The notes beneath the pieces are model-generated. The model had not been told where the DNA came from, did not search any database, and saw only the letters and a program-made list of their open reading frames with translations. A stretch of DNA of 61,657 nucleotides, counting the filler, from Pirum gemmata (lineage: Eukaryota): NCBI GenBank assembly GCA_002812295.1. It is 13 parts of 13 records of this genome, joined end to end, with 100 filler letters (N's around TTAATTAATTAA, not from the genome) between each part and the next. Parts side by side here need not be neighbours in the genome. Positions count along the whole stretch, not along the records: positions 18,314 to 25,651 come from PDIN01001403.1; 12 more parts are not named here. The stretch is one strand, 5' to 3'. Positions 1,681 to 57,737 of this stretch are shown here, piece after piece. Both the position numbers and the translations under genes were made by a program. Positions within the stretch are counted from its first letter, which is position 1; each line of letters opens with the position of its first letter.

Positions 1681-4302
1681 GCTATTTTTGACTGATGGGG
1701 TTTATTATTATTATTATTATTATTATATTATTATTTAATTATTGTTTTTTACTCGAACATGGTGATAAAAAGTATCGATAGACTAAAATTTATTCATATT
1801 ATATTATACTGTAGACTATAGATAACTGTATTTAGACTATGATTTTTATAAAAATAAAAAAAATAAATCAAACTCGGTAATTATTATCAAACTATTATCA
1901 ATTTATCAATATCTAATAATTATCATAATAATTATTATAATATTATGATATTTATTATCTGTTTATTAAGTCGATAAAAGGTTATTTTTTATTATATTGT
2001 TTATAGAACTGTTCATAGAGCTGTGGTTTACATAGAGCTGTTTTTATAGTATATCGAGTTATAGACCGGTCTAACCGTCTAACTATGATAGTTAGTTAGT
2101 TACTAGTGATAGCTCATAATTATTATTATTTATTATGATTCACTATGAGCCTATAAAAACTTCTGAGCAATTAAAAAAAAAATTTTTTTATTTTATCTAT
2201 TTTTTTTTACTATGATATGAATAATAATAGTCTACCTCTACGAATGACTAGCTAGTAGCTCCAGTAGCTAGCTAGCTAGCTGCCACTTCGGACTAAAGTT
2301 AGCTTTTAAAAAAAAAGTTCCTGTTTTCCTCTCTACTAGCTAGCTAGCTAGCTAGAGCTAGTGGTGTTTTCCTTTAGAGAGTTAGGTCTAGTAGCTAGCT
2401 AGCTAGCTAACTAGTTAGGGAAGGAGGCTGGGGGAAGGAGGAGCAGTAAGTTATGATACTGTAAGTATCATAGGTTACAGTTATAGACTAACTCTAGCTA
2501 GCTAGTAGACTAACAGTATAATATATTTGCTGATTTGCTTCATTTGATTGTCACTTGGTTTTGACCTGTTGTACTTTTCATAATGACACCATAATATATA
2601 GTCTATGATAGGCAATTGTATTGTTCTTTTGTCGTAGAAATATTGGTTTTTAAACTTTGTTCCTAGTATTGCGTTGCTGTTGTCGTTGTGGATATTGTTG
2701 GAGTTGTCAACTTGCCGTTGTGGATATTGTTGGAGTTGTCTATATTCGGATTTATCGATATAGAGTCTAGACAGTGTCTGGACAGTGTCTAGACTATGTA
2801 ATATTTTTTTGATGTAGGTCGGGCTGGTTCGACCGTTCGAGTCTGGTTTAATTACAGGGTTTAATTAATAGCCATCTAGCTAGCTAGCTAGCTAGTCTTA
2901 TAAACAGGTTTGTCTATGTTCAAATAATTTTTCTTGAACTCCTTGCTACTAGCTAGAGTAGCTAGCTACTAAGCTCTAGCTAGTGAGCTATGATAGTACT
3001 ATGATATATGATAGTCCAGTATGATAGTCAAACTTCAAAGAGTGTTCAAAGATTTTTAGTTTGACTTGTGGAAATTCTTTGGAACAGAGTAGACTAGTCT
3101 AGTCTATTACCATACTACTATTGTGCTTTTCATTTATTTTGTCACCCCTGCATTTTTGTTTGGTAGGTTATAACCTTTAACTATATTTTTAAATTAATAA
3201 ATAGAAAATTAAATTAAATGGATTTATATTGTATTAATTTGGTACTCTTTATTGTATGACAAAACAACTGAAAAGTACTATACTAGTCTAGCTACTGTCT
3301 AGCTACTAGAAAATAGCTATCGATATGATATGATAGGCCTGATATGATATAGTAGTTTACAGCTAGAGTTTTAAAATAGTAGCTAGTATCAATAGTGACT
3401 CCGATTAGTGAGTCTTTGTATCATAGTGTCTTTGTCATGACAGAACCTCATGAGCTGGAATGAGCAACCTCATGTATTCTCATGTGTAAAAAAAGCAAGT
3501 GTGGCAGTAATTTTTCCTATAGTCCTTGACTCCTTGTAGCTAGCTTAGTATATAGGTGATAGCTATTTATAAACCGAACCATATAGTCTATTGATCGAGT
3601 CTGTGCTCGAATCAAACACAGTTCTTTTTATTTAACAAACACCCTGACTGTTACGTCACTATGAGCATACTACTCACTGGTATCGTAGACTTGTAGTAAG
3701 TCCCGAGTAGCCGAGTCGAGTAGCCGAGTCGAGTAGACACTACTCGAGACACTACTCGCTACTCTAGCTAGCTAGCTAGCTAGCTAAGTTATCCAGAATG
3801 CTCTACAGACTACGGTAGCTAGCTAGTAGCTAGCTAGATCCCCATCTAAAATTCTAAATAGAGGCTGGATTCCACTCTAACTAGCTAGCTAGTATCTAGC
3901 TAGAGGGATTCCACTTTTTCTCCTGTGAAAAATAGCCAAATTAAAATGACGTTATAAATATCACTCAGATAATCGTCAGATTCACTTCCTTTTTATTTTG
4001 AATCCCTTTTTAGAGACAAATTCCTATACTAGCTAGCTACTAGCTAGTAGCTACTCTACAGTCTCCATTGCTAGCTAGCTAGCTATCATAGGTCTCTATG
4101 ATACTCTATTGATAGTAGTGTTGTCCAAACCCGCTTGCGTGGGTCGCCCATTGACCCACGGGCGAGTATTGATCCCGGGCATATATTATATCTACGCAAA
4201 TANNNNNNNNNNNNNNNNNNNNNNNNNNNNNNNNNNNNNNNNNNNNTTAATTAATTAANNNNNNNNNNNNNNNNNNNNNNNNNNNNNNNNNNNNNNNNNN
4301 NN

Positions 4303-4367: not shown

Positions 4368-5894
4368 AATAATAATAATAATAGCGGCGAAGAAGAAGTA
4401 GAAAACGAAGACGAAGACGAAGGAGAAGGAGAAGAAGAAAGATTAAAATCCAACTTCAAAAAGAACATGATTTTGCTATGTTTGTTTGGATTTTTTCGAT
4501 CATTTAAACCTTCTGAACCTTTCCTTCACAATATTCTCGTTGAAGGAAAAGGTTTTTCTAATAATGATATTAACAACAATGTTTATCCTTTTTTTACTTA
4601 CTCTAATTTAGTGTTTTTGTTTTTAGTCAGCTTTTTTGCCGAATTTGCCTCCTATCGTGTGATCATTGTTTTAGAAGCATTGACCCAAGTGGTTACGAGA
4701 TGCATTTTGTTATGGGGCCAAGAATTATGGTTATTACAATTAATGCAAGTTACATTTGGTTTTGCCGAGGCTTGTAATGTGATCTTTATTGTTTATGGTT
4801 ACAAGTTAGTTGCTCAATCTCATTTTCAAAGTGTTTCCAGTTATGCTCGTGCTGCAGAATTCGGAGGACACGTGTTGAGTGGGTTGTTGGGACAATTTTT
4901 GGTTACTTATTGTCACGTGGCACCCATGAATCTTCTTTATATTTCTTTTGTTTCTATTTTAATAGCGACGCTAATTTCTCCGTTTCTACCGTCCCCACCC
5001 AAGGCTAAACAGAACCAGCAAGAACTAGTGTCTTCTAGCTTAGCAACCAGTGACGAAACGGATAGTTTAAGTTAGTATTATTTTGTTTATTGTTTTTTTT
5101 TATTCTTATATTATTATTATTTGTTATTGTTGTTTATTAGTGTTGTTTATTATTGTTGTTTGTTATTGGTGTTTATTATTGTTGTTTATTATCGTTGTTT
5201 ATTATTGCTGTTTATTATTGTTATTTATTATTGTTTATTATTTTTAGTGTTTATTGTTGTTGTTTATCATTGTTGTGTATTGCTGTTGTTTATTATTGTT
5301 TAATCGTTATTTTTATTTGCTATTATGTATTATTATTATTCACTATTCACTATTTAGTATTTAGTATTTAGTATTAGTATTTAGTATTATTAATTGTTAT
5401 TTATTTTGATTAATATTTTAATTATTGTAATTCTTTATTATTAATATTTATTATTATTACTACTACTACTACTATTACTATTACTACTACTACTACCACT
5501 ACCACCATCACCACCACCACCACGACCACCACTACTACTACTTCTACTTTTACTACTACTAATACATTTTTATTGTTTAATTTTCTTTACCAGTTTATCA
5601 AAGCAATGTAACAAATTATAATTCCTTCTCAGAAACGGAAAGGCGGCAAAATTCGGCTACCGCTCGCTCACACGTGGATGCCGAGAGACTAATTGAAATT
5701 TTTAGTGTTCAAAATAATACTAATTTCGAGTATAATACGAATAATAATACGGAATGCGAAAAAAGTGATGAGAGTGACAATGATACTACCAGTTTATTAA
5801 AACAGGACAGTTTTATTACCACTCTTACGCAACACCGAAAAAAAGTGCGGAAACGAAATTTATTAAATAGAACACTAGACCGAATTCATAATAT
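4303..5894 (+). CDS. SLC19-family (reduced folate/thiamine carrier) transporter, partial: exon <4303-5070 and exon 5594-5894
   Basis: LCLFGFFRSFKPSEPFL, YPFFTYSNL, LQLMQVTFGFAEA and SGLLGQFLV match SLC19/Folate_carrier motifs. Frame is open upstream of Met 4467 (poly-N, SGEEEVENEDE) to the contig edge. Intron 5071-5593 (GTTAGT...TACCAG) joins in frame to IYQSNVTNY...RIHN, donor GTAAGT at 5895. C-terminal half not found. Confidence 0.88.
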
Positions 5895-6748: not shown

Positions 6749-8465
6749 CTAATCGCCCACATTCCATTCAAAGTCTTTGGAAATACACCTGGTTTTTGTT
6801 CTTCAATAAAGTTAGATGAAGTTTCAAAACCTATTAATTAAAAAATAATAAATAATTATTAATTGTAATTATTTTATTTTCAAGTTTTACTTTTGGGGTC
6901 ATTAATTAGGGTTAAGGTTAGGGTTAAGATTAGGGTTAAGTTTAAGGTTAAGGTTGGGATTGTGATTGTGATTAGAGTTAGAGTTAGGGTTAAGGGTAGG
7001 TTAAGCTTAAGGTTGAGATTGGGATTGGGATTAGGGTTGGGGTTAGGGTTGGGGTTAAGGAATAGGGTTAGGAATAAGGTTAGGGTTAGGGTTAGGGTTA
7101 GGAATTAGGGTTAGGAATTAGGGTTAGGGTTAGGAATTAGGGTTAGGAATTAGGGTTAGGAATTAGGGTTAGGAATTAGGGTTAAGAATTGGGGTTAGGA
7201 ATTGGGGTTAGGGTTAGGAATTAGGGTTAGGAATTAGGGTTAGGAATTAGGGTTAAGAATTAGGGCTAGGAAATAGGGTTAGGGTTAGGGTTAGGGTTAG
7301 GGTTAGGGTTAGGGTTAGGGTTAGGGTTAGGGTAGTTTCGAATCCTATTAGAAAATCATAAATATTGAGTAATTGTCATTATTTTATTCTCGATTTTTAT
7401 TTTTGGAGGTGAAATTTGGATATGGCTAATTAGAATTTAGGTTAGGGTTAAGATTAGGGTTAAGATTAGGGTTAAGTTTGGGATTGTGATTGTGATTAAG
7501 TATAGAGTTAGAGTTAGAGTTTGGGTTAGGGTGAGGGTTAGGGTTAGGGCAAAGATTAAGTTAAGGTTAAGGTTAGGGTTTGGATTAGGATTAGGATTAG
7601 GGTTAGGATTAGGGTTAGGGTTAGGGATTAGGGATTAGGGATTAGGGATTAGGGATTAGGGATTAGGGATTAGGGATTAGGGATTAGGGATTAGGGATTA
7701 GGGATTAATTAGGGTTGGGGATTGGGGTTAGAAGTTAGGGTTAGGGTAGTTACGAATCCTATTACAAAATCATAGATAATGATTAAGTGTAATTATTTTA
7801 TTTTCGATTTTTATTTTTGGGGGTGAAAGTTGGATATCGCAAATTAGGGTTAAGGTTAGGTTTAAGGTTACAGTTAAGGTTAAGGTTTTAAGGTTAGGGT
7901 TAAGTTTAGAGTTGGGATTAGGATTAAGATTAGGATTGGGATTAGGATTAGCATTAGGATTAGCATTAGCATTAGCATTAGCATTAGCATTAGCATTGGC
8001 ATTAGCATTAGCATTAGGATTAAGGTTAGGGTTAGGGTTAGGGTTGGGATTAGGATTAGGATTGGGGTTAGGGTTGGGGTTAGGGTTAAGGTTAAGGTTA
8101 GGGTTAGGATTAGGGTTAGGATTAGGGTTAGGGCAAGGGTTAGAACTAGGGTTAGGATTAGGGTTATAATTAGGATTAGGGTTAGGGTTATGGTTATGGT
8201 TATGGTTAGGGTTATGGTTAGGGTTAGGGTTATGGTTAGGGTTATGGTTAGGGTTATGGTTAGGGTTATGGTTAGGGTTATGGTTAGGGTATACCAGTGA
8301 CTCCAAGCATAGCTGCAGCACAGCCGAAAAATATAGAATAAGCAGCAGAATTGGGGTTTGGGTGATGATAAGTGTTGTGTATGTTATTCCAATCAGTTCT
8401 AAATCCAACATAAATCGCTACAATTATCATTATCGTTGAGGTTGTAATATGCAAGAGAAAAATAC
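6749..8465 (-). CDS. APC-superfamily amino-acid permease, two internal exons (8465-8295 and 6830-6749)
   Basis: Splicing intron 8294-6831 (GTATAC...TAATAG, phase 1) gives [40 protein letters not shown], matching the APC TM6-loop motif G-x-E-x-x-x-N-x-x-E-E-x-K-x-P. Second exon ends at a GTAAGT donor. Confidence 0.85.
6905..8290 (+). repeat. Interstitial telomere-like array (TTAGGG with TTAGGAA, TTAGGGA, TTAGCA, TTATGG variants) in three blocks inside the permease intron
   Basis: Directly visible; blocks are separated by related ~95-bp non-telomeric spacers at 7334-7430 and 7748-7845. Confidence 0.95.
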
Positions 8466-8663: not shown

Positions 8664-10862
8664 ATGTGTTATGGAGTTACTGAACAGGGATTGTTTTCCT
8701 GTAACAATGCAAGTTTGCTTGCAAACAAAAAACTAAGAGAACAAGAGCTAAATAGAATTAAAAAAATTAATATAATTACCACCGGTACCCCCAATACCAC
8801 CACCACCACCAATACAACAGATGACGAAGAAGACATCTCGTCTATCTTACCTTCTCAAGAAAATACTCCAACAAACAATAATGACAACGTTAATAAAGGA
8901 CCATGTTGTTGTTCTGATACAAAAACAATTCATATAACAGCGAAAAATGGTACTAGCGAGTACGCTTTAAATCGTTTAAAACACGGTATAACTTCTCATA
9001 CTCAAAACTCACACAACGTCAGCTCAGTGTCTCTAGTAAATAATAGTCTTTATAGCCTTCCTATAGAAATATACAAACTCCAATGTTTAACACGAATCAA
9101 CATTTCTCGCAATGCCTTTTCATTTTTCCCGATTGTTATATGTACTCTTGTTAATATAAAGTCTATCAATATAAGTGATAATTATATTCCGAAAATACCA
9201 AAAGAAATTAAAAACTTAACCAACTTGGAATATTTCCATTGTAATGAAAATCGTATTCAGGAGATACCCGAGAGTTTATGTTGTTGTACAAATCTGAAAG
9301 GCTTGTATATGGGCTCCTTTTCCGGGGGCAATTTATTAAAAACTTTACCAGAGTCCATTCGTAAACTTCAAAATCTTGAAGAATTAGATTGCTCGTACAA
9401 TCGCATTACTCATTTACCTTCTAGTATAGGTGATTTAAAAAGTTTACGAATTCTTAATTTGGAACGAAATGAGATACACCATTTACCTTGTACTGTTGGG
9501 AAACTATCAAATATTGGTACTATTAACGCGCAACATAACCAATTAGTTTCTTTACCCGAATCATTGAGTGCGTGTAGGAATTTGCGAATGCTAAATGTTA
9601 CATTTAATTTGTTGAAGCACATTCCTGGCGAACTTTGTTGGTTAGCTAGTCATGCCATTGTTCTGTTAGGTGGCAATCCCCTTCATAGTAATAGTATTGC
9701 TATCCGTAACCGTAATTTTGAAAGTTTAAATGACCTTCTTAGTGATGCTATTATTGGTGTTGGTATTAATCACCATCATAATAACAATAATATTAGCAAT
9801 GAAAATCATAATAATCATAACAATACTAGTAATAATAACAATAACAATAACAACAATATTGTAAATGGAGAAGATGGGCATTTAATAGCAGTTCGTTTAC
9901 CAGCTGTGGAACGAATAAGGCGCCCTTCCATACATGCTTACAATCAGCAACAAGAATTAGAAGAGCAACAGCAGCTTGAAACTAACCATTATATTGTACA
10001 CAAACTTCTTCGTATTCATGCTAAAAGAGTGAAAACTTTAAGAAAGAAACAGGCAAGACAACAAAAAATACAAGCAAAATTAGAAAAAAAGACTCGTAAA
10101 AGAAAACACATGATGAATAACAATAACGGAGCCTTTAATAACTCGTATAGTGAAATGGAGATGGATGATATCGAGGAAGAGGACTTTGGTATGAATGATG
10201 ATATTTATAATGATGATGATAACGAAGAAGAATTTGACTCTGACGAAGAACAAGAAGAAAATTACGAACAAAAAAATATCATTGAGTCCCCTTATTTCCA
10301 ACATGTTTCTGATATTTTCAATGGATCATTTGAATATACGGTTTTACCAGCGCGGGTGCATACTCACACGAACACGGTGATGGTAGTAGACAACGAAGAC
10401 GATTTTACGTTTTCAGATAGCTTACCCACCCCACCACTTATCCCAATAGCATCGCAACAACAATCATACAGAATTAATGCAATAGAAAAAGGCCAAAAAC
10501 AATGCTTAAACAAAATTCCTTCGTTGCGCGAATTAAGCGGAACTGTAGTATTACGATCATTGGCGACTGCAGCGAAGGATTTTCCCGTTTGTTCAGAGTT
10601 ATGGTGTAAGTTTGCTCAATCGGTTGTTAAAGTTTTAAATGCTGATCAACACAGAGAGTATATACCTGCAGATGTAGTCTCATTCTTAGAAACAGCTAAT
10701 GGCTGTTCTGGATGCAGATTACCTTGTTTCCATGTGTCTTGGAAAAAAGTAAAGACTGAAAGTTTTGGACACCCTAATGTATCTAATCTACATAGATTAT
10801 GCGCGTTTTGTTATTCTAGTATTAGCTCAGTTCAACCACAATCACAACCACAACTGTCGTAA
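8664..10862 (+). CDS. Intronless leucine-rich-repeat protein (about 9-10 LRRs) with Asn/acidic linker and LRRC58-like C-terminal BC-box and Cys-rich motif
   Basis: 732-aa ORF with repeated LxxLxxLxLxxNxLxxLPxxI units, cap LGGNPL, then IPSLRELSGTVV ... LETANGCSGCRLPCF ... RLCAFC. Confidence 0.9.
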   Translation: MCYGVTEQGLFSCNNASLLANKKLREQELNRIKKINIITTGTPNTTTTTNTTDDEEDISSILPSQENTPTNNNDNVNKGPCCCSDTKTIHITAKNGTSEYALNRLKHGITSHTQNSHNVSSVSLVNNSLYSLPIEIYKLQCLTRINISRNAFSFFPIVICTLVNIKSINISDNYIPKIPKEIKNLTNLEYFHCNENRIQEIPESLCCCTNLKGLYMGSFSGGNLLKTLPESIRKLQNLEELDCSYNRITHLPSSIGDLKSLRILNLERNEIHHLPCTVGKLSNIGTINAQHNQLVSLPESLSACRNLRMLNVTFNLLKHIPGELCWLASHAIVLLGGNPLHSNSIAIRNRNFESLNDLLSDAIIGVGINHHHNNNNISNENHNNHNNTSNNNNNNNNNIVNGEDGHLIAVRLPAVERIRRPSIHAYNQQQELEEQQQLETNHYIVHKLLRIHAKRVKTLRKKQARQQKIQAKLEKKTRKRKHMMNNNNGAFNNSYSEMEMDDIEEEDFGMNDDIYNDDDNEEEFDSDEEQEENYEQKNIIESPYFQHVSDIFNGSFEYTVLPARVHTHTNTVMVVDNEDDFTFSDSLPTPPLIPIASQQQSYRINAIEKGQKQCLNKIPSLRELSGTVVLRSLATAAKDFPVCSELWCKFAQSVVKVLNADQHREYIPADVVSFLETANGCSGCRLPCFHVSWKKVKTESFGHPNVSNLHRLCAFCYSSISSVQPQSQPQLS

Positions 10863-17080: not shown

Positions 17081-17967
17081 CTATTCTTCAGGAAATAAAT
17101 CAGTAATGCTGTTAATTACAAGTCTGTTCATGTAATTCGTTAAACCAAAACAAACTTGAACAACTATATCATAATAATTTAACAAAGGTATTGGTACTTC
17201 ATCAGTCATGATTTTGAATACCTTTGCTTTTCGAATTACTCTTTCTACGTGGATCCTTGTTGATGCCACTTCTTTGGTCACTAACTTTTCGTCTTGTGAA
17301 AACTGTTGATCTTTTTTTAGAAAAGCAGGTAAATCAACTTGATTCTCTAAACCAAGATTAGCGCCATTTGTAAACCCCTTGTCTGCCATAACACGAGGCC
17401 ATAGTTTTTCAAATATACAAGTGCATTCAGCTGTTTGGACTTTGGCGGTGTGATGATTATTGTAATATGAAAAAAGCATTCTTTGTAATGCTTCTGTGGC
17501 ATCGATTATTAAGGCCGTGTGCTTGTATAGAGGGTGTTGCTTGATGCAAGGGAGCATATGTTCTTCTATCCATTCCTTTTTTAGTTTATTTAACATAGTC
17601 AAGTCTTCATGCATGATAAATGTGTGCGTAAGCCTGTTTGAAAATACCGTGATGCTGTTTGACTTGAAATATTGAATAAGTATTAATAACCTAAGTGGTA
17701 AAAATAAAAATTTTGCTTCAATTTCATGAATGTCAATAACATACCGTCTTCAAAATCTAGTTTCTTTCTTTCCTTTTTTTCTACGTGTCATTGCTCTTTT
17801 AAATCTACTAGTACTTTTACAAGTAGTTCCACGATACTACATGGTGTCCATATACCTTTTGTAAACCTCCTTATTTCAGTTGTTTTCTCTCGCACACGAC
17901 AGACATTCGGTAATCTTTTACCCTTAGCGTTGCTTTCATTACAATTTACATGTAAACAACCCCCCAT
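17081..17967 (-). mobile_element. Decayed ISL2EU/Harbinger-group DNA transposase (THAP-like + HTH_Tnp_4 + DDE_Tnp_4)
   Basis: ATG at 17967 gives MGGCLHVNCNESNAKGKRL...WTP (THAP-like start), then KLDFEDGMLLTFMKLKQN...FNISSQTASRYF (HTH) with in-frame stops, then LIIDATE, YYNNHHTAK, VMADKGF, LPAFL, ASTRIHVERVI. Spacing implies internal deletions. Confidence 0.85.
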
Positions 17968-20138
17968 TTTGGTTTTGTTATTTTGTTATTAATTTTTTAT
18001 TTATTTATTTATTTATTTATTTACTTCTATTAAATTTATTTATTTATTTATTCATTTATTTATTTATTTATTATCGTTATTATTATATACTTTATTACTT
18101 TTATTATTATTATTATTGTTTGATTTTGTTATTTTGTTATTAAATTTTTATTTATTTATTTATTTATTTACTTCTATTAATTAAATTTATTTATTTATTT
18201 ATTTATTTATTTANNNNNNNNNNNNNNNNNNNNNNNNNNNNNNNNNNNNNNNNNNNNTTAATTAATTAANNNNNNNNNNNNNNNNNNNNNNNNNNNNNNN
18301 NNNNNNNNNNNNNAGGTGTCGAATTAACTAATTAAAACTAATAAACTTATCTTTTTTTACAAAAAAGGAAATTTATTATATAATGTATGAAATATCAGTA
18401 CGAAATATGATAAAACTTTACCGCCTCTTCGTTAAAAAAGTACCAACGTTATTACTATCATCGATAAGTTCATTTTTTTGTTAGGCTAGTCTAGCTAGTC
18501 AGGGTCAGGGTTAGGGAGTTTTAGAGGGTTAGGGCTTGCTAGGTAGTTATTGCTAGGTCTAGGTAAGTTTTATAGTTGGATTTTTTTTTAACTACCAAAC
18601 CGGATAAAAATTGCCATATGAGCTCAAAAATCAAAAAAATCTCAAAATGATCCAATTTTCAAACAAAATACTACCAAATTTTGAGAAATGGTCTAACTAA
18701 TTAAACCCTATTATGAACCAATGCCCAGTTTTGAAGAATAATTTGGTTATCGTAGGTAGAAAAAAAAATTTTTTCTAGTTTTATCCGGCTTGGTTGTTAA
18801 AAAAAAATAAAAATTTAAAAAAAAAAAATTAGTTGGGTGGTTTTAAAAGCCATGCACACCATGTTTATTTTCTAATCGTATCACAGTAAAAAAAATTTTA
18901 AAAAAAAAAAAAACGAATTATTAACATTGCATTTATTTTTCTCGTAGTACCGTTGTGCCATTGGCTGGTCATATACATTACACAATTGCTATTAACATAT
19001 CAATAGTTGGTGTCAGTTACCATTATCAGCTCTTATTTATTAACATCCAACTTTCTCAGTTATTGCAAATTGAAACACAAATAAGTAAACTACAAATACC
19101 AGTAGTTAGTTATTTTTTTTCAACCAGAAATGCGGGAAAACCCATCGAATCGAAGACTAGAATTTCGAAACTTTTCGATCTAATTGACTCACCAAAAAAA
19201 TTCTTTACAATTTCATAGAAAAAAGTTGAAACTCGAAAAAAAAAGAATATCATTTCAAAATTGTCACTATTTAATGATTACGATCGATCATGTTTTGTGC
19301 TAGTATAATAACTACTTCTACGTCTAATATTACTTGTCCACATACTTTACTACTATAAAAACTACTACTCTATAACAACTACAACTACTATGATACTTGA
19401 TTCTAAATTTACCAGTAACATTTTTTTAGAACGTCAAATTTTTGATGGAAAATTTTTCTTTCTATTTTTTTTTTTTTTTTTTTTTTTTTTTCCTGCACTT
19501 TACCCCGCTCATCTCCTACTCCTGCACTATTATCACTACCCATGCGTTTTTTTTTTTAAAAAACCCGAAAATTTTGTTTTCGAAAATACAGACTAGTTTT
19601 TCTACAGCTAACTCCACAAGTTCTGCTGCTTTGAAAAACAGTACCAGACTTTTAATTTTAAATTTGTTAATCAATTCGGCACTCGAAAGTTAGTAAAAGA
19701 AAAAGGAAAAAAATAAATATTACCAATTTTTCTAATTTTTTATTAGTTTTTGTATTTTTTCACAATTAAGCTTATTAAAATACTTTTGTAATATTTTGAT
19801 ATTTAGTTATTAGGAAGTGCAATATTTTATTAACGCGCACATCACTTAATTCGTGCCCACCGTATTGTAACCAGAATAAATTGTTTGGGTCCATTAGTCC
19901 ATTAGTGTCCATTCATAATAATATATAATAATATTAGCCATAATAGACACTTTTTAATTCCTTTAATTAATTGTACCCCAAAATTGTCAATGGTCGAAAT
20001 GGAATTGTCAAATGGTAATTAAATTTTGTATAATATATTTTGAATGCATTTTAATTAATTAACGATTTTTATTTTACTTTTTTAATCAAATAAAAATTTT
20101 ATTCCTATTCATAATAAAAATTTAATTTATTGAAATAA

Positions 20139-21179
20139 TTAATAAACCATCGTTTCAATAGATTGAATCATACCAGATTGAATAAACTCTCCATAACATT
20201 CCATGGATTCTGTTTTAAATTTAAGAGCACCATTCATATTTTTCTGAAACAAAATATACGAAACATCCTGACTTGCTACCTTGATTGATTTCACATTCAT
20301 TTGACCAACTAGTTGTAATAATTTTTCGGTGGGGTAACGTCCAGCAGTCAATTCTATTTTACTTCCTTTAAAATAACAATCACTATATAAAGTCAAAGCA
20401 GGTAAGTTTTTGGCATTTTCGACAATAGTAGCGGCGGTTGCCTCTGCTTCAGCAATAAGCAAAGCAGCTTCAATTTCGGCAGATTTAATGATTTCTTCCG
20501 CATCAGCGGATGCAATGTCATCTTTTTTAATAGTATCTTCTATAGGTGTACTAGGAGCCTTGTCTAAAGCGGCAAACCCAGGACCTTCTCCGATTAGTGC
20601 CACTTTGTTTTCGTAATATTGTGCATCTTTGTTATCACCGTTGGCGTTATTAATCCCGATGGTTAACCAATAGAACTCTAAAGTACAACCATCACTACCA
20701 CAATCTTCGGGTAAAGTTGGTAATGGTATATCAGATTCACAATTACTGTGACCACAAAACTTTCTTACACAATCATCTTCATGAAAGATTTTTTTACTTT
20801 GTCCTTGTTTATTAACAACGTAAAAAGCACAAGGACCTTGATGATCGATAATCCAGCTGTTAAAATGTGCTTTACGTGGGGCCCTTTGTGGACTATTATT
20901 AGTGCGGTCATTGAGGGCACCTCTGTTGATAGCTTTGTAAGTATACAATTCTTTTAAATCTGTATTACCGAAATCTCTTTTAAATGCATTCATGTCGGTA
21001 TTAGGGTAGCTGCCGTAATAATCTCTCAAGCCAGGGTTCACATATCTCAATGACTCGACAAAAAGCGGATCTCTGGCATGACCGGGTCCATTTAGATTAG
21101 GTACAGTAAGTACACCATGACCGTGTGTAGAAGATATAGCCAAAGATAAAGTAAGTACTAAAGTATTTATGGCAAACAT
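20139..21179 (-). CDS. Secreted lytic polysaccharide monooxygenase, AA17-like, with helical linker and C-terminal beta/gamma-crystallin-like domain
   Basis: Intronless 346 aa. Signal peptide ending STHG exposes His1 (HGVLTVP). DHQGPCAFY, IFHEDDC, C-x4-CTLEFYWL and Q-Y-Y match the recalled AA17 pattern HxGPC...F..DDC...C.F.FYWLA...QxY. LTLYSDCYFKGSKIELTAGRY...VKSIKV matches microbial beta/gamma-crystallin Greek-key motifs. Confidence 0.85.
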   Translation of the reverse strand: MFAINTLVLTLSLAISSTHGHGVLTVPNLNGPGHARDPLFVESLRYVNPGLRDYYGSYPNTDMNAFKRDFGNTDLKELYTYKAINRGALNDRTNNSPQRAPRKAHFNSWIIDHQGPCAFYVVNKQGQSKKIFHEDDCVRKFCGHSNCESDIPLPTLPEDCGSDGCTLEFYWLTIGINNANGDNKDAQYYENKVALIGEGPGFAALDKAPSTPIEDTIKKDDIASADAEEIIKSAEIEAALLIAEAEATAATIVENAKNLPALTLYSDCYFKGSKIELTAGRYPTEKLLQLVGQMNVKSIKVASQDVSYILFQKNMNGALKFKTESMECYGEFIQSGMIQSIETMVY

Positions 21180-22039
21180 TTTTAGGTTGGTTGTAGTTGT
21201 TTCTATTTTTTAATTTTTATTTTCAGTTTCTTTGTTTGTTTAAAAAAATTAATAATACAATTATAATTTTTTTTTTTGGTCTGTTTTTTGGTTTGAAATT
21301 TTTAATTTTATTTGCTTTTTTTTATTAGAAGTCTATTTATAGTTTGTTTTGTTCAGTTACAAAATATTTTTCAATTGTTTTTTGCCCGTTTTTTGTATTT
21401 TTTATTAGTTAGTTGATANTTTTTTTTTTTTTTTTTTTTTTTGGTCTGTTTTTTGGTTTGAAATTTTTCATTTTGTTTGCTTTTTTTCATTAGAGGTCTA
21501 TTTATAGTTTTTTTTGTTCAGTTACAAAATATTTTTCAAAATTTATTGTTTTTTTTGTTAGTTGAAATAATATTATCATTATAACTACTAGAATATAAAT
21601 TATTATATTCCAAATCCGGATTTGGTTGTAAGATTATTTAAGCTTTATTTACCAATTAAAATACAGTTGTTCTTTTAAAAAAAGGAGTTTACAAATAATT
21701 ACAAATCCTTTTTTTTTTTTTTTTTTAAGGGGGGAAGCTAAATTAGGGGGGGGGTTTCTTGTGTGGTTGTTTGGTTAGCTAAGTTTGGTTAGTCGGTTTA
21801 ATAAATTAGCTATAATAAATAGCTAATAATAAATAGCTAGTTATGAAGATAACTTCTATCATAGGTTGAATTGTGAGCTTTTCACCTAGGAATTTTTGAT
21901 TGGACTAGAATAAAAAAGTAATGAAAGTGAAATGACGTCATTCCCTCTTGATCGTAAACTTTTTTAAAAAAAAGAAAATAATCAATTTTAAAATGCAATA
22001 ATTCTGTATTCATAAAGTATTCATAATTAAAATCTACAG

Positions 22040-57199: not shown

Positions 57200-57737
57200 C
57201 TATTGAATAGAATTACAATTTATCATTAATATGTGAAGTGAAAAAAAAGCATTAACAAAAGTTTTTTGTATTATCAAATTATATATATCTGAGGGTTTAA
57301 AAAAAAATCGGAAACAATAAGAATGCGTGCGTGTGTGCGTGCGTGTGCGTGTGAGTGTTTTATTTGTGTGTTTGTGTGTTTGTGTGTTTGTGTGTGTGTG
57401 TGTGTGTGTNNNNNNNNNNNNNNNNNNNNNNNNNNNNNNNNNNNNNNNNNNNNTTAATTAATTAANNNNNNNNNNNNNNNNNNNNNNNNNNNNNNNNNNN
57501 NNNNNNNNNAACCCTAACCCTAACCCTAACCCTAATCCTAACCCTAATCCTAACGCTAGCGCCTATGCACTCCCTATGAAATTCCTATGCTATAACGCTA
57601 TTTTATTTGTTTCAGCAATTTGAAATTCTTATTTTGATTTTTATTTTATAAAACCAACTTTATAAAGTAGGGGTGAGATATCTACTGTAACTTTTTTCGA
57701 ACAGATGCTTATCGAGCCAACCTTAGTTCCGCGTTCC

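What the first reader, a model, noticed from the sequence alone, without database searches (positions are those of the whole stretch)
20139..21179. AA17-like copper LPMO fused to a beta/gamma-crystallin domain in an apparently non-oomycete genome
Seen: signal peptide, His at the predicted mature N-terminus (residue 21), second His in DHQGPC, Q-x-Y motif, a helical Ala/Glu linker and a crystallin-like C-terminal domain; no introns. Established: the HxGPC...DDC...FYWL...QxY pattern typifies AA17, described as pectin-cleaving virulence LPMOs of oomycetes, whose genomes are GC-balanced with TTTAGGG-type telomeres. Inference: this AT-rich TTAGGG genome is a different lineage, so this may be a horizontally acquired or deeply diverged AA17 subfamily with an unusual partner domain (Ca2+ or carbohydrate binding) and possibly another substrate. 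The recalled YxxC Cys is Lys here (YENK) and no upstream CG is seen, hinting at loss of one disulfide.
Basis: partly seen in the sequence, partly recalled or inferred. Interest (0 to 1): 0.88.

Follow-up and report, generated by a model that had tools for sequence, protein, structure and literature searches.

The report
AA17-like copper enzyme in animal relative
This intact gene, likely from a single-celled marine relative of animals (Pirum or close kin), encodes a predicted secreted copper enzyme whose nearest relatives are the pectin-cutting enzymes described so far only from water moulds, joined to a lens-crystallin-type domain that likely binds a sugar polymer rather than calcium.

Summary
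The ORF is real: 346 aa, minus strand, no introns, host-like codon use. His21, His113 (HxGPC), Gln187 and Tyr189 align with positions invariant in 41 oomycete AA17 proteins. Sequence, profile and fold searches all put AA17 first (VIA Z 13.8 against 8.6 for the next LPMO). The C-terminal domain has a beta/gamma-crystallin fold, but both Ca2+ motifs are degenerate. The closest relatives are six full-length Pirum gemmata (Ichthyosporea) proteins and one unnamed metagenome protein; four of these six also end in a crystallin domain. The genome is therefore probably Pirum or close kin, not an oomycete contaminant. The group forms its own long-branched clade (100/99), shares only 16-29% identity with oomycete AA17, and lacks one Cys pair that is near-invariant in AA17 (8 of 8). 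I file it as an AA17-related sister clade, not a member. Copper binding, cleavage site, activity and substrate are untested. Horizontal transfer is plausible, but the tree is unrooted and gives no direction. No report of AA17 outside oomycetes turned up in my searches of an incomplete library.

The parts
20139..21179 (-). Whole ORF, 346 aa, no introns; only plausible protein-coding ORF found on its 7.3 kb contig (18314-25651)
   Evidence: contigs of DNA run X1 tile it with 0-1 differences each
21120..21179 (-). Predicted signal peptide, residues 1-20, ending T-H-G
   Evidence: hydropathy and a matrix from 48 homolog leaders rank cleavage before His21 best, modestly; SignalP not available
20589..21119 (-). 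AA17-related LPMO-type domain, residues 21-197
21117..21119 (-). His21, predicted N-terminal copper ligand
   Evidence: His in 41 of 41 oomycete-type and 8 of 8 Pirum-type domains (rows were picked as starting with HG, so this column is conserved by construction)
20841..20843 (-). His113 in HxGPC, predicted second copper ligand
   Evidence: 41 of 41 and 8 of 8
20613..20621 (-). Gln187-Tyr188-Tyr189, predicted second-sphere Gln and axial Tyr
   Evidence: Gln and Tyr each 41 of 41 and 8 of 8 (rows were picked with a Q-x-Y/W motif); roles from PMC11137697 passages
20412..20588 (-). Linker: low-confidence Pro/Ser/Thr stretch, then a predicted 32-residue Ala/Glu helix (residues 225-256)
   Evidence: AlphaFold2 model
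20142..20402 (-). Single beta/gamma-crystallin-fold domain, residues 260-346, with YxxxYFxG and GxY signatures, Cys268 and Cys328, and degenerate Ca2+ motifs
   Evidence: Foldseek to clostrillin, Protein S, flavollin and hahellin, TM 0.63-0.67 over the target; alignment; Pfam PF00030 only 14 bits against a cut-off of 25
20126..20131 (-). AATAAA starting 8 bases after the stop codon, a possible polyadenylation signal (weak, AT-rich context)

Best explanation
The gene encodes a predicted secreted copper enzyme of the lytic polysaccharide monooxygenase (LPMO) type, from an AA17-related clade in a genome that is likely the ichthyosporean Pirum or close kin, and it likely cuts a sugar polymer outside the cell. 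Shown: the ORF, the motif residues, AA17 as best sequence and fold match, the crystallin fold, the paralog family. Inferred: cleavage after Gly20 exposes His21; His21 and His113 bind one Cu with Tyr189 axial and Gln187 in the second sphere; after reduction the Cu uses H2O2 or O2 to oxidise a glycosidic carbon and break the chain, as in characterised LPMOs. Also inferred: the helical stalk holds the crystallin domain away as a Ca2+-independent glycan-binding or anchoring module. My best guess for the substrate is food or host glycan met in an invertebrate gut or marine detritus (about 0.45 within this reading), ahead of the organism's own wall (about 0.35); land-plant pectin is not specially favoured. 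The shared ancestry with oomycete AA17 most likely reflects an old transfer between stramenopile and ichthyosporean osmotrophs (about 0.65), direction unknown.
For: The top three PDB sequence hits of the single protein are the three AA17 structures, E 2.5e-4 to 1.3e-3 (identities of 8S71, 8S6S and 6Z5Y from PMC11992081). A profile of five Pirum-type sequences with no oomycete row finds the same three at E 2.2-4.3e-7 and no other LPMO among 6 hits at E up to 10. Profile-profile probability 99.5%, 162 columns from His1. Fold: 8S71 Z 13.8, rmsd 3.2 over 163 residues, next LPMOs Z 8.6, of 48,161 chains; Foldseek top four all AA17. His113, GPC, Cys137, Cys160, Gln187 and Tyr189 are 41 of 41 and 8 of 8, Cys165 40 of 41 and 8 of 8. 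Host: of the 6 catalytic-domain hits with E under 1e-9, 5 are P. gemmata and 1 is unnamed; a paralog variant in DNA run X1 carries 5 of 6 in-range amino-acid changes equal to P. gemmata P0002; GC3 is 0.26 against 0.27-0.31 in four other ORFs of the window. Crystallin tails occur on P0005, P0008, P0012 and P0033 and PAN domains on P0006, P0008 and P0012, as PAN and CBM1 do on Saprolegniales AA17. A crystallin-like stretch also lies at the C-terminus of a GH29 fucosidase, 4NI3 (E 0.008). The Pirum plus Abeoforma clade received 21 of 26 Labyrinthulea-to-Teretosporea transfers, and 11 Pseudofungi-to-Teretosporea transfers are reported (PMC13345962).
Against: No activity or copper binding was tested. 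The model's N-terminus has pLDDT under 50, so the brace is not shown. Both models were built on alignments containing oomycete AA17 rows (41 of 49; 13 of 22), which biases the fold match. Identity to oomycete AA17 is 18.5-27%, and the oomycete profile scores it 45.5 bits against at least 193 for its own members. Several AA17 invariants are changed: a Cys pair, Trp before Gln187, Lys after Tyr189, Glu after GPC. The cleavage-site score is modest and His19 competes. The exact protein is not in the 15-billion collection, so the species is inferred, and no housekeeping gene was checked. The ESM Atlas ranked an unnamed Zoopagomycota cluster and two LPMO_10 Ascomycota clusters first (0.85-0.86, lead level). 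Net charge gives no substrate clue: -2 here, +5 to +7 in four relatives, -9 and -13 in two Phytophthora proteins.
Confidence: 0.7

Rival explanations
1. Same enzyme, but its job is remodelling the organism's own thick wall during coenocyte growth and spore release, with the crystallin domain anchoring it to the wall.
For: P. gemmata has a thick cell wall (PMC11286789). Saprolegniales AA17s (about eight copies) are proposed to remodel their own cellulose (PMC8393829), and the Pirum-only profile scores Saprolegniales, Pythium and one unnamed row highest, 62-73 bits, against 25-50 for Peronosporales-type rows.
Against: No relative from another walled ichthyosporean was among the 31 hits or the 120 of 294 listed; a core wall function would be expected more widely. 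These searches were limited. Varied accessory domains and recent duplicates with diverging crystallin parts fit varied outside targets.
Confidence: 0.25
2. A His-brace copper protein that does not cut polysaccharide: a copper carrier like X325/Bim1, or an H2O2-producing oxidase that helps other enzymes.
For: His-brace proteins without LPMO activity exist (PMC10952591 passages). An AA16 study calls its enzymes oxidoreductases that boost AA9 LPMOs (PMC10088020, search listing only). Several AA17 invariants near the active site are changed.
Against: Gln and axial Tyr are kept in 8 of 8; X325 scores Z 6.3 against 13.8 for AA17; no hydrophobic C-terminal anchor is seen; PAN-type accessory domains suit a polymer substrate.
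Confidence: 0.15
3. The AA17-like family is ancient in eukaryotes and was kept vertically in oomycetes and some ichthyosporeans, with many losses or undetected members; no transfer is needed.
For: The branch between the two groups is long (about 2.7 changes per column) and neither nests in the other in the sample. AA15 LPMOs are widespread in eukaryotes including Ichthyosporea (PMC5823890). An unnamed Zoopagomycota cluster is the top Atlas feature hit.
Against: Named relatives came only from oomycetes and P. gemmata. The Pirum lineage is a reported sink for stramenopile genes. P0006 has the same LPMO plus PAN_4 layout as Saprolegnia P0139.
Confidence: 0.3
4. The contig is contamination from an oomycete or other stramenopile.
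For: The contig is short (7.3 kb) and carries no other gene.
Against: Host-like GC3; repeats shared with 7 of 12 other contigs, two of them in the same ungapped stretch as the gene; six full-length relatives among P. gemmata proteins; only 18.5-27% identity to oomycete AA17.
Confidence: 0.03

Closest known systems
CAZy AA17 LPMOs: P. infestans 6Z5Y, P. sojae PsAA17A (8S6S) and PsAA17B (8S71)
   Same: Signal peptide then His-Gly, HxGPC, DxC, C-x4-C, FYW, Q-x-Y; best sequence and fold match; helices in the N-terminal insert.
   Different: Non-oomycete host; 18.5-27% identity; CG/YKNC Cys pair lost; W-Q-x-Y-K becomes A-Q-Y-Y-E; extra Cys142/Cys147; folded crystallin tail in place of a disordered Ser/Pro/Thr tail; activity on pectin (C4 oxidation) untested.
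Saprolegniales and Pythium AA17 with CBM1 or PAN_4 (e.g. Saprolegnia diclina P0139, Achlya hypogyna P0122)
   Same: Highest-scoring oomycete subgroup for the Pirum-only profile; modular layout with PAN domains as in P0006, P0008, P0012.
   Different: They keep the third Cys pair and carry no crystallin domain by Pfam in the rows scanned; their function is proposed, not shown.
Microbial beta/gamma-crystallins: clostrillin 3I9H, flavollin 3HZB, Protein S 1NPS, hahellin 2KP5
   Same: Fold and Greek-key signatures.
   Different: One domain, fused to an LPMO-type domain; both Ca2+ motifs degenerate in all 5 Pirum-type domains aligned.
AA15 LPMOs, the family already reported in Ichthyosporea
   Same: His brace and beta-sandwich; present in the same lineage.
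   Different: Z 8.2, rmsd 5.4 to 5MSZ; no LPMO_10 Pfam hit at E up to 1; motifs match AA17.

Membership tests
AA17 LPMO | His at the mature N-terminus after a signal peptide | tested here: inconclusive
   His21 aligns with His1 of 8S71; home-made cleavage matrix ranks it first but modestly, His19 lies nearby; SignalP not available
AA17 LPMO | Second brace His in HxGPC | tested here: met
   His113; 41 of 41 and 8 of 8
AA17 LPMO | Second-sphere Gln and axial Tyr (Q-x-Y) | tested here: met
   Gln187, Tyr189
AA17 LPMO | Ig-like beta-sandwich closest to AA17 structures | tested here: met
   Z 13.8, rmsd 3.2, 163 aligned to 8S71; next LPMO 8.6; Foldseek E 2.7e-7; model built with AA17 rows in its alignment
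AA17 LPMO | Long helix at about residues 35-51, said to be unique to AA17 (PMC10195143) | tested here: inconclusive
   model has shorter helices at mature residues 43-50, 55-60 and 67-72; this protein has a 4-residue gap there against its paralogs
AA17 LPMO | Cu His-brace geometry | tested here: inconclusive
AA17 LPMO | Family-level sequence similarity (30% threshold as stated in PMC10195143) | tested here: not met
   18.5-27.1% identity to 41 oomycete-type domains; 45.5 bits against at least 193.5 for members
AA17 LPMO | Conserved CG ... YKNC cysteine pair | tested here: not met
   present in 41 and 40 of 41 oomycete-type rows, absent in 8 of 8 Pirum-type rows
AA17 LPMO | Oomycete origin (tables in PMC10195143 and PMC10952591 list Oomycota only) | tested here: not met
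   nearest named relatives are P. gemmata; GC3 0.26
AA17 LPMO | Hit to the dbCAN/CAZy AA17 model above its cut-off | not testable with these tools
   no dbCAN library; Pfam gives no model even for true AA17 rows P0022, P0026, P0133
AA17 LPMO | Cu-dependent C4 oxidation of demethylated pectin | not testable with these tools
   needs an assay
AA10/AA15/AA16 (LPMO_10-type) | Match to Pfam PF03067 | tested here: not met
   no hit at E up to 1; Z 8.6, 8.2 and 6.5 for the best AA10, AA15 and AA16 chains; Atlas features resemble LPMO_10 clusters at 0.85, lead level
beta/gamma-crystallin | Greek-key fold with Y/FxxxxY/FxG and GxY signatures | tested here: met
   Foldseek TM 0.63-0.67 over target; YSDCYFKG and GRY; phmmer hits to multi-crystallin proteins to E 2.5e-15
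beta/gamma-crystallin | Pfam PF00030 above gathering score | tested here: not met
   14 bits here and 17.8 for P0002, cut-off 25
Ca2+-binding beta/gamma-crystallin | Two N/D-N/D-x-x-S/T-S motifs (PMC3551895) | tested here: not met
   QMNVKS and SGMIQS; degenerate in 5 of 5 Pirum-type domains, intact or near-intact in 3 of 3 comparison domains

The most novel reading that the evidence does not exclude
An undescribed LPMO family, sister to AA17, in a unicellular relative of animals. It was gained by eukaryote-to-eukaryote transfer and expanded to about ten copies. It oxidises a marine or host glycan that no known LPMO attacks (alginate, ulvan, mucus glycan or an ichthyosporean wall polymer), and is aimed at it by a Ca2+-free beta/gamma-crystallin domain that acts as a new kind of carbohydrate-binding module.
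Probability: 0.25. Interest if true: 0.85.

Novelty: new variant of a known kind. Interest (0 to 1): 0.62.

Why it matters
AA17 is the only LPMO family with pectin activity and is tabulated as oomycete-only. A diverged sister clade in a marine, gut-derived opisthokont shows the fold is not tied to plant infection. It gives an outgroup for the origin of these virulence enzymes and a set of small secreted proteins that can be assayed for new LPMO substrates. The repeated crystallin fusion offers a direct test of whether beta/gamma-crystallin domains without Ca2+ sites act as glycan-binding modules.

Tried and rejected
No whole genome is held, so copy number and synteny could not be read directly. 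Pfam and NCBIfam give no family for the catalytic domain; weak DivIVA and ATP-synthase hits fall on the Ala/Glu helix and were rejected. The word-seeded protein search found 0 hits among 2,223 candidates for the protein alone and 1 among 6,436 for the Pirum-type alignment although the paralogs are in that collection, so its blanks say little about range. Pattern scans found no confirmed locus in metagenome contigs (0 of 119 and 0 of 42 stretches), viral contigs (0 of 95, 0 of 3) or prokaryote genomes (0 of 74); no plasmid match; no viral structure at E up to 0.001. These detect close relatives only. The origin of P0006 could not be found. No RNA holder was listed; run X2 is only guessed to be RNA, so its short matching contigs are not used as evidence of expression. 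Net charge was tried as a substrate clue and rejected. An intron reading of the joint in run X3 was rejected: its ends are not GT-AG and the contig is about 15% diverged. Earlier findings of the scan: nothing in three look-ups. The original AA17 paper (Sabbadin 2021) and the Fusarium fucosidase structure paper are not held, so AA17's published range in the original paper and its supplements, and any function claimed for the 4NI3 domain, were not seen. Two VIA second-look jobs were not run because the machine was busy. No AU test or rooted tree was made: no alignable outgroup was fetched.

Full report
Observation. The window is 13 small contigs joined by spacers; the gene lies on contig 5 (18314-25651), and no other plausible protein-coding ORF was found there. 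It reads on the minus strand, 20139-21179, as one open frame of 346 aa starting at the first Met of its frame. Contigs of DNA run X1 tile the gene with 0-1 differences each. The window is 27.5% GC. The gene's GC3 is 0.26, against 0.27, 0.27, 0.31 and 0.30 for the LRR, multicopper oxidase, folate carrier and DDE transposase ORFs (two further ORFs gave 0.14 and 0.34).

The N-terminal domain. Pfam has no model for it. The single sequence finds 11 PDB sequences at E up to 10, and the top three are 8S71, 8S6S and 6Z5Y (E 2.5e-4 to 1.3e-3), which PMC11992081 identifies as P. sojae AA17B and AA17A and P. infestans AA17 (passages). A profile of the window domain plus P0003-P0006, with no oomycete row, finds the same three at E 2.2-4.3e-7 and no other LPMO among its 6 hits. 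In reverse, a profile of 41 oomycete or oomycete-like domains scores the 8 Pirum-type proteins at 28.5-51.5 bits (this one 45.5), against at most 7.0 for 800 shuffles and at least 193.5 for its own members; the two profiles align from His1 over 162 columns with probability 99.5%. The AlphaFold2 model of the domain (49 rows, mean pLDDT 77, pTM 0.79) matches AA17 first by Foldseek (E 2.7e-7, TM 0.63; AA9 and AA16 next at 4.4e-4) and by VIA-align over 48,161 chains (8S71 Z 13.8, rmsd 3.2, 163 aligned; next LPMOs 8.6; X325 6.3). The model was built with oomycete rows, so the fold match is not independent of the sequence match. Mature residues 1-4 and 7-16 have pLDDT under 50, so the brace itself is not shown.

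Residues. In 49 domains (8 Pirum-type and 41 oomycete-type, picked by hand for diversity from 129 complete domains among 164 stored proteins), His113, Gly115, Pro116, Cys117, Cys137, Cys160, Gln187 and Tyr189 are invariant, and Cys165 and Trp171 nearly so. His21-Gly22 and the Q-x-Y motif were used to pick the rows, so their counts are partly by construction. Gln with axial Tyr is a standard LPMO second sphere (PMC11137697 passages). The Trp before Gln187 (41 of 41) is also missing in 8 of 8, and the Lys after Tyr189 (41 of 41) in 7 of 8. Identity of the window domain is 27-50% to Pirum-type rows and 18.5-27% to oomycete-type rows. A matrix built from 48 homolog leaders ranks cleavage before His21 best of 12 sites (6.4; before Thr18 4.5; before His19 -5.1), but 6.4 lies below the lower quartile (8.4) of true sites left out in turn.

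The C-terminal part. The full-length model (pLDDT 71) has a 32-residue helix and then a domain that Foldseek matches to clostrillin, Protein S, flavollin and hahellin (TM 0.63-0.67 over the target). Pfam PF00030 scores only 14 bits. The Ca2+ motif of this fold is N/D-N/D-x-x-S/T-S (PMC3551895 passages); here the two positions read QMNVKS and SGMIQS, and all 5 Pirum-type crystallin domains aligned are degenerate, while 3 comparison domains keep it or nearly so. Ca2+ binding is therefore unlikely. A glycan-binding role is an inference from position: relatives carry PAN or CBM1 domains there, PDB names flavollin's parent a carbohydrate binding protein, and a GH29 fucosidase (4NI3) has a weakly matching C-terminal stretch (E 0.008). 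I could not read the paper on 4NI3.

Host. phmmer over 1.84 billion representatives gave 31 hits. Of the 6 catalytic-domain hits under E 1e-9, five are Pirum gemmata proteins from EukProt and one (P0006) is an unnamed JGI protein; a cluster member adds a sixth Pirum protein, P0033; the best hit overall, P0002, is a P. gemmata fragment 76% identical to residues 240-344. Run X1 holds two diverged variants of the crystallin region (25 and 22 differences over 183 and 172 bases). I translated the effect of 14 of the 40 listed differences (23 more were not shown): of 6 amino-acid changes within P0002's range, 5 equal P0002. The genome is thus probably P. gemmata or very close kin, although this exact protein is not in the collection and no housekeeping gene was tested. 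The depths of the three crystallin-region contigs in X1 (308, 388, 299) sum to about the depth of the one contig over the catalytic region (1,032), which hints at three copies with near-identical catalytic domains; the tool warns that depth is no copy number. Contamination is unlikely: contig 5 shares repeats with 7 of 12 other contigs. P. gemmata was cultured from an invertebrate digestive tract (reference title) and has a thick wall (PMC11286789 passages).

Family and origin. Four of the six full-length Pirum proteins (P0005, P0008, P0012, P0033) end in a crystallin-like domain, as does the fragment P0002; P0008, P0012 and P0006 carry PAN domains. A search with a mixed alignment gave 294 hits among 1,451 candidates; of the 120 listed, all named ones are oomycetes. 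In the careful tree (49 rows, 181 columns) the 8 Pirum-type rows are one side of a branch with support 100/99 and length about 2.7; there is no outgroup, the root is not inferred, and several Pirum-type branches are long. The Pirum-only profile scores Saprolegniales, Pythium and one unnamed row at 62-73 bits, P0026 at 54, and Peronosporales-type rows at 25-50, which may only reflect slower evolution of the former. P0006 has the LPMO plus PAN_4 layout of Saprolegnia P0139. PMC13345962 (passages, and parts 6 and 7 of 49 of one supplementary spreadsheet plus two term searches in it) reports the Pirum plus Abeoforma clade as recipient of 21 of 26 Labyrinthulea-to-Teretosporea transfers, and 11 Pseudofungi-to-Teretosporea transfers; neither its main text nor that spreadsheet names AA17, and the rows I saw name no LPMO. 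Its large supplement could not be read and unannotated clusters could hide this family. Transfer is plausible, not shown.

Mechanism. Shown: anatomy, conserved residues, best matches. Inferred from established LPMO chemistry: secretion, exposure of His21, a Cu brace with His113, reduction, and H2O2- or O2-driven oxidation of a glycosidic carbon. The substrate is open. Characterised AA17s oxidise demethylated pectin at C4, while Saprolegniales AA17s are proposed to remodel their own cellulose (PMC8393829 passage). For a marine gut osmotroph I favour an outside glycan, on the basis of varied accessory domains and no hit so far in other walled ichthyosporeans; wall remodelling is close behind, and a non-lytic copper protein is a lesser rival (PMC10952591 passages).

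Novelty. Tables in PMC10195143 and PMC10952591 list AA17 for Oomycota only. AA15 is the LPMO family reported from Ichthyosporea (PMC5823890 passages). Searches for AA17 with LPMO (55 papers, 40 listed), AA17 with oomycete and pectin (29 of 29), LPMO with ichthyosporea (2 of 2), AA17 or lineage names (329, 40 listed, none with AA17) and LPMO, crystallin domain, AA17, protist (130, 25 listed, none with both LPMO and crystallin domain) showed no report of AA17 outside oomycetes or of an LPMO-crystallin fusion. These were seen as listings. Further passages were read in PMC8615602, PMC4739763, PMC10154630 and bioRxiv 2025.06.05.658061 and add nothing on this point. The original AA17 paper, the CAZy and dbCAN pages and most subscription papers were out of reach. 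It works like an AA17 LPMO by every sequence and fold test, but fails family-level identity, the third Cys pair and the taxon, so I call it an AA17-related sister clade: a new variant of a known kind.

Noticed in passing
window, 12 spacers (first at 4203-4302, last at 57410-57509): The window is 13 separate 4-7 kb contigs joined by 44 N, TTAATTAATTAA, 44 N, so neighbouring ORFs are not linked.
   Followed up: yes
window 20244-21099, run X1: Two diverged variants of the crystallin region and about threefold depth over the catalytic region hint at three recent copies whose crystallin parts diverge faster than their catalytic parts.
   Followed up: partly
window 20572-21183, run X3 record 21: A 927-base contig about 15% diverged matches both ends of the catalytic domain but has 66 bases where the window has 354; the 288-base shortfall keeps the frame and would remove His113. 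A deleted paralog or an assembly artefact.
   Followed up: no
P0003, P0004, P0005, P0006, P0033: These relatives have five Cys in the catalytic domain, with an extra one near the N-terminus, so one may be unpaired; the window protein instead has an extra pair, Cys142 and Cys147.
   Followed up: no
P0006: Unnamed metagenome protein with a Pirum-type catalytic domain and a PAN_4 domain laid out as in Saprolegnia AA17 P0139; its organism could decide the direction of transfer.
   Followed up: partly
ESM Atlas: Top feature hit is an unnamed 55-member cluster, mostly Zoopagomycota, score 0.86: a lead to a possible further LPMO-like group in early-diverging fungi.
   Followed up: no
window 34550-36992: Multicopper oxidase gene in at least two exons. 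PMC13345962 lists a multicopper oxidase cluster, OG15616, with a Teretosporea-Pseudofungi transfer topology; not tested whether this is the same family.
   Followed up: no
window 4467-5075, 8664-10862, 17081-17614: Reduced folate carrier exon, LRR protein with poly-Asn runs, and DDE_Tnp_4 transposase fragment.
   Followed up: no
window 44772-47087: Broken ORFs that look like reverse transcriptase, RNase H and integrase of a copia-type retrotransposon (recognised from recalled motifs, not scanned).
   Followed up: no
window 6906-8290, 23215-23325, 30492-30595, 37180-37345, 38596-39176: Many interstitial TTAGGG-type arrays, often degenerate, on at least half of the contigs; a (TAAACCC)n array at 38283-38377.
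   Followed up: no
window 23830-24040, 18612-18828, 19120-19295: Three dispersed repeats of about 200 bases shared with other contigs; the first recurs in 5 other contigs. Terminal inverted repeats were not shown.
   Followed up: partly
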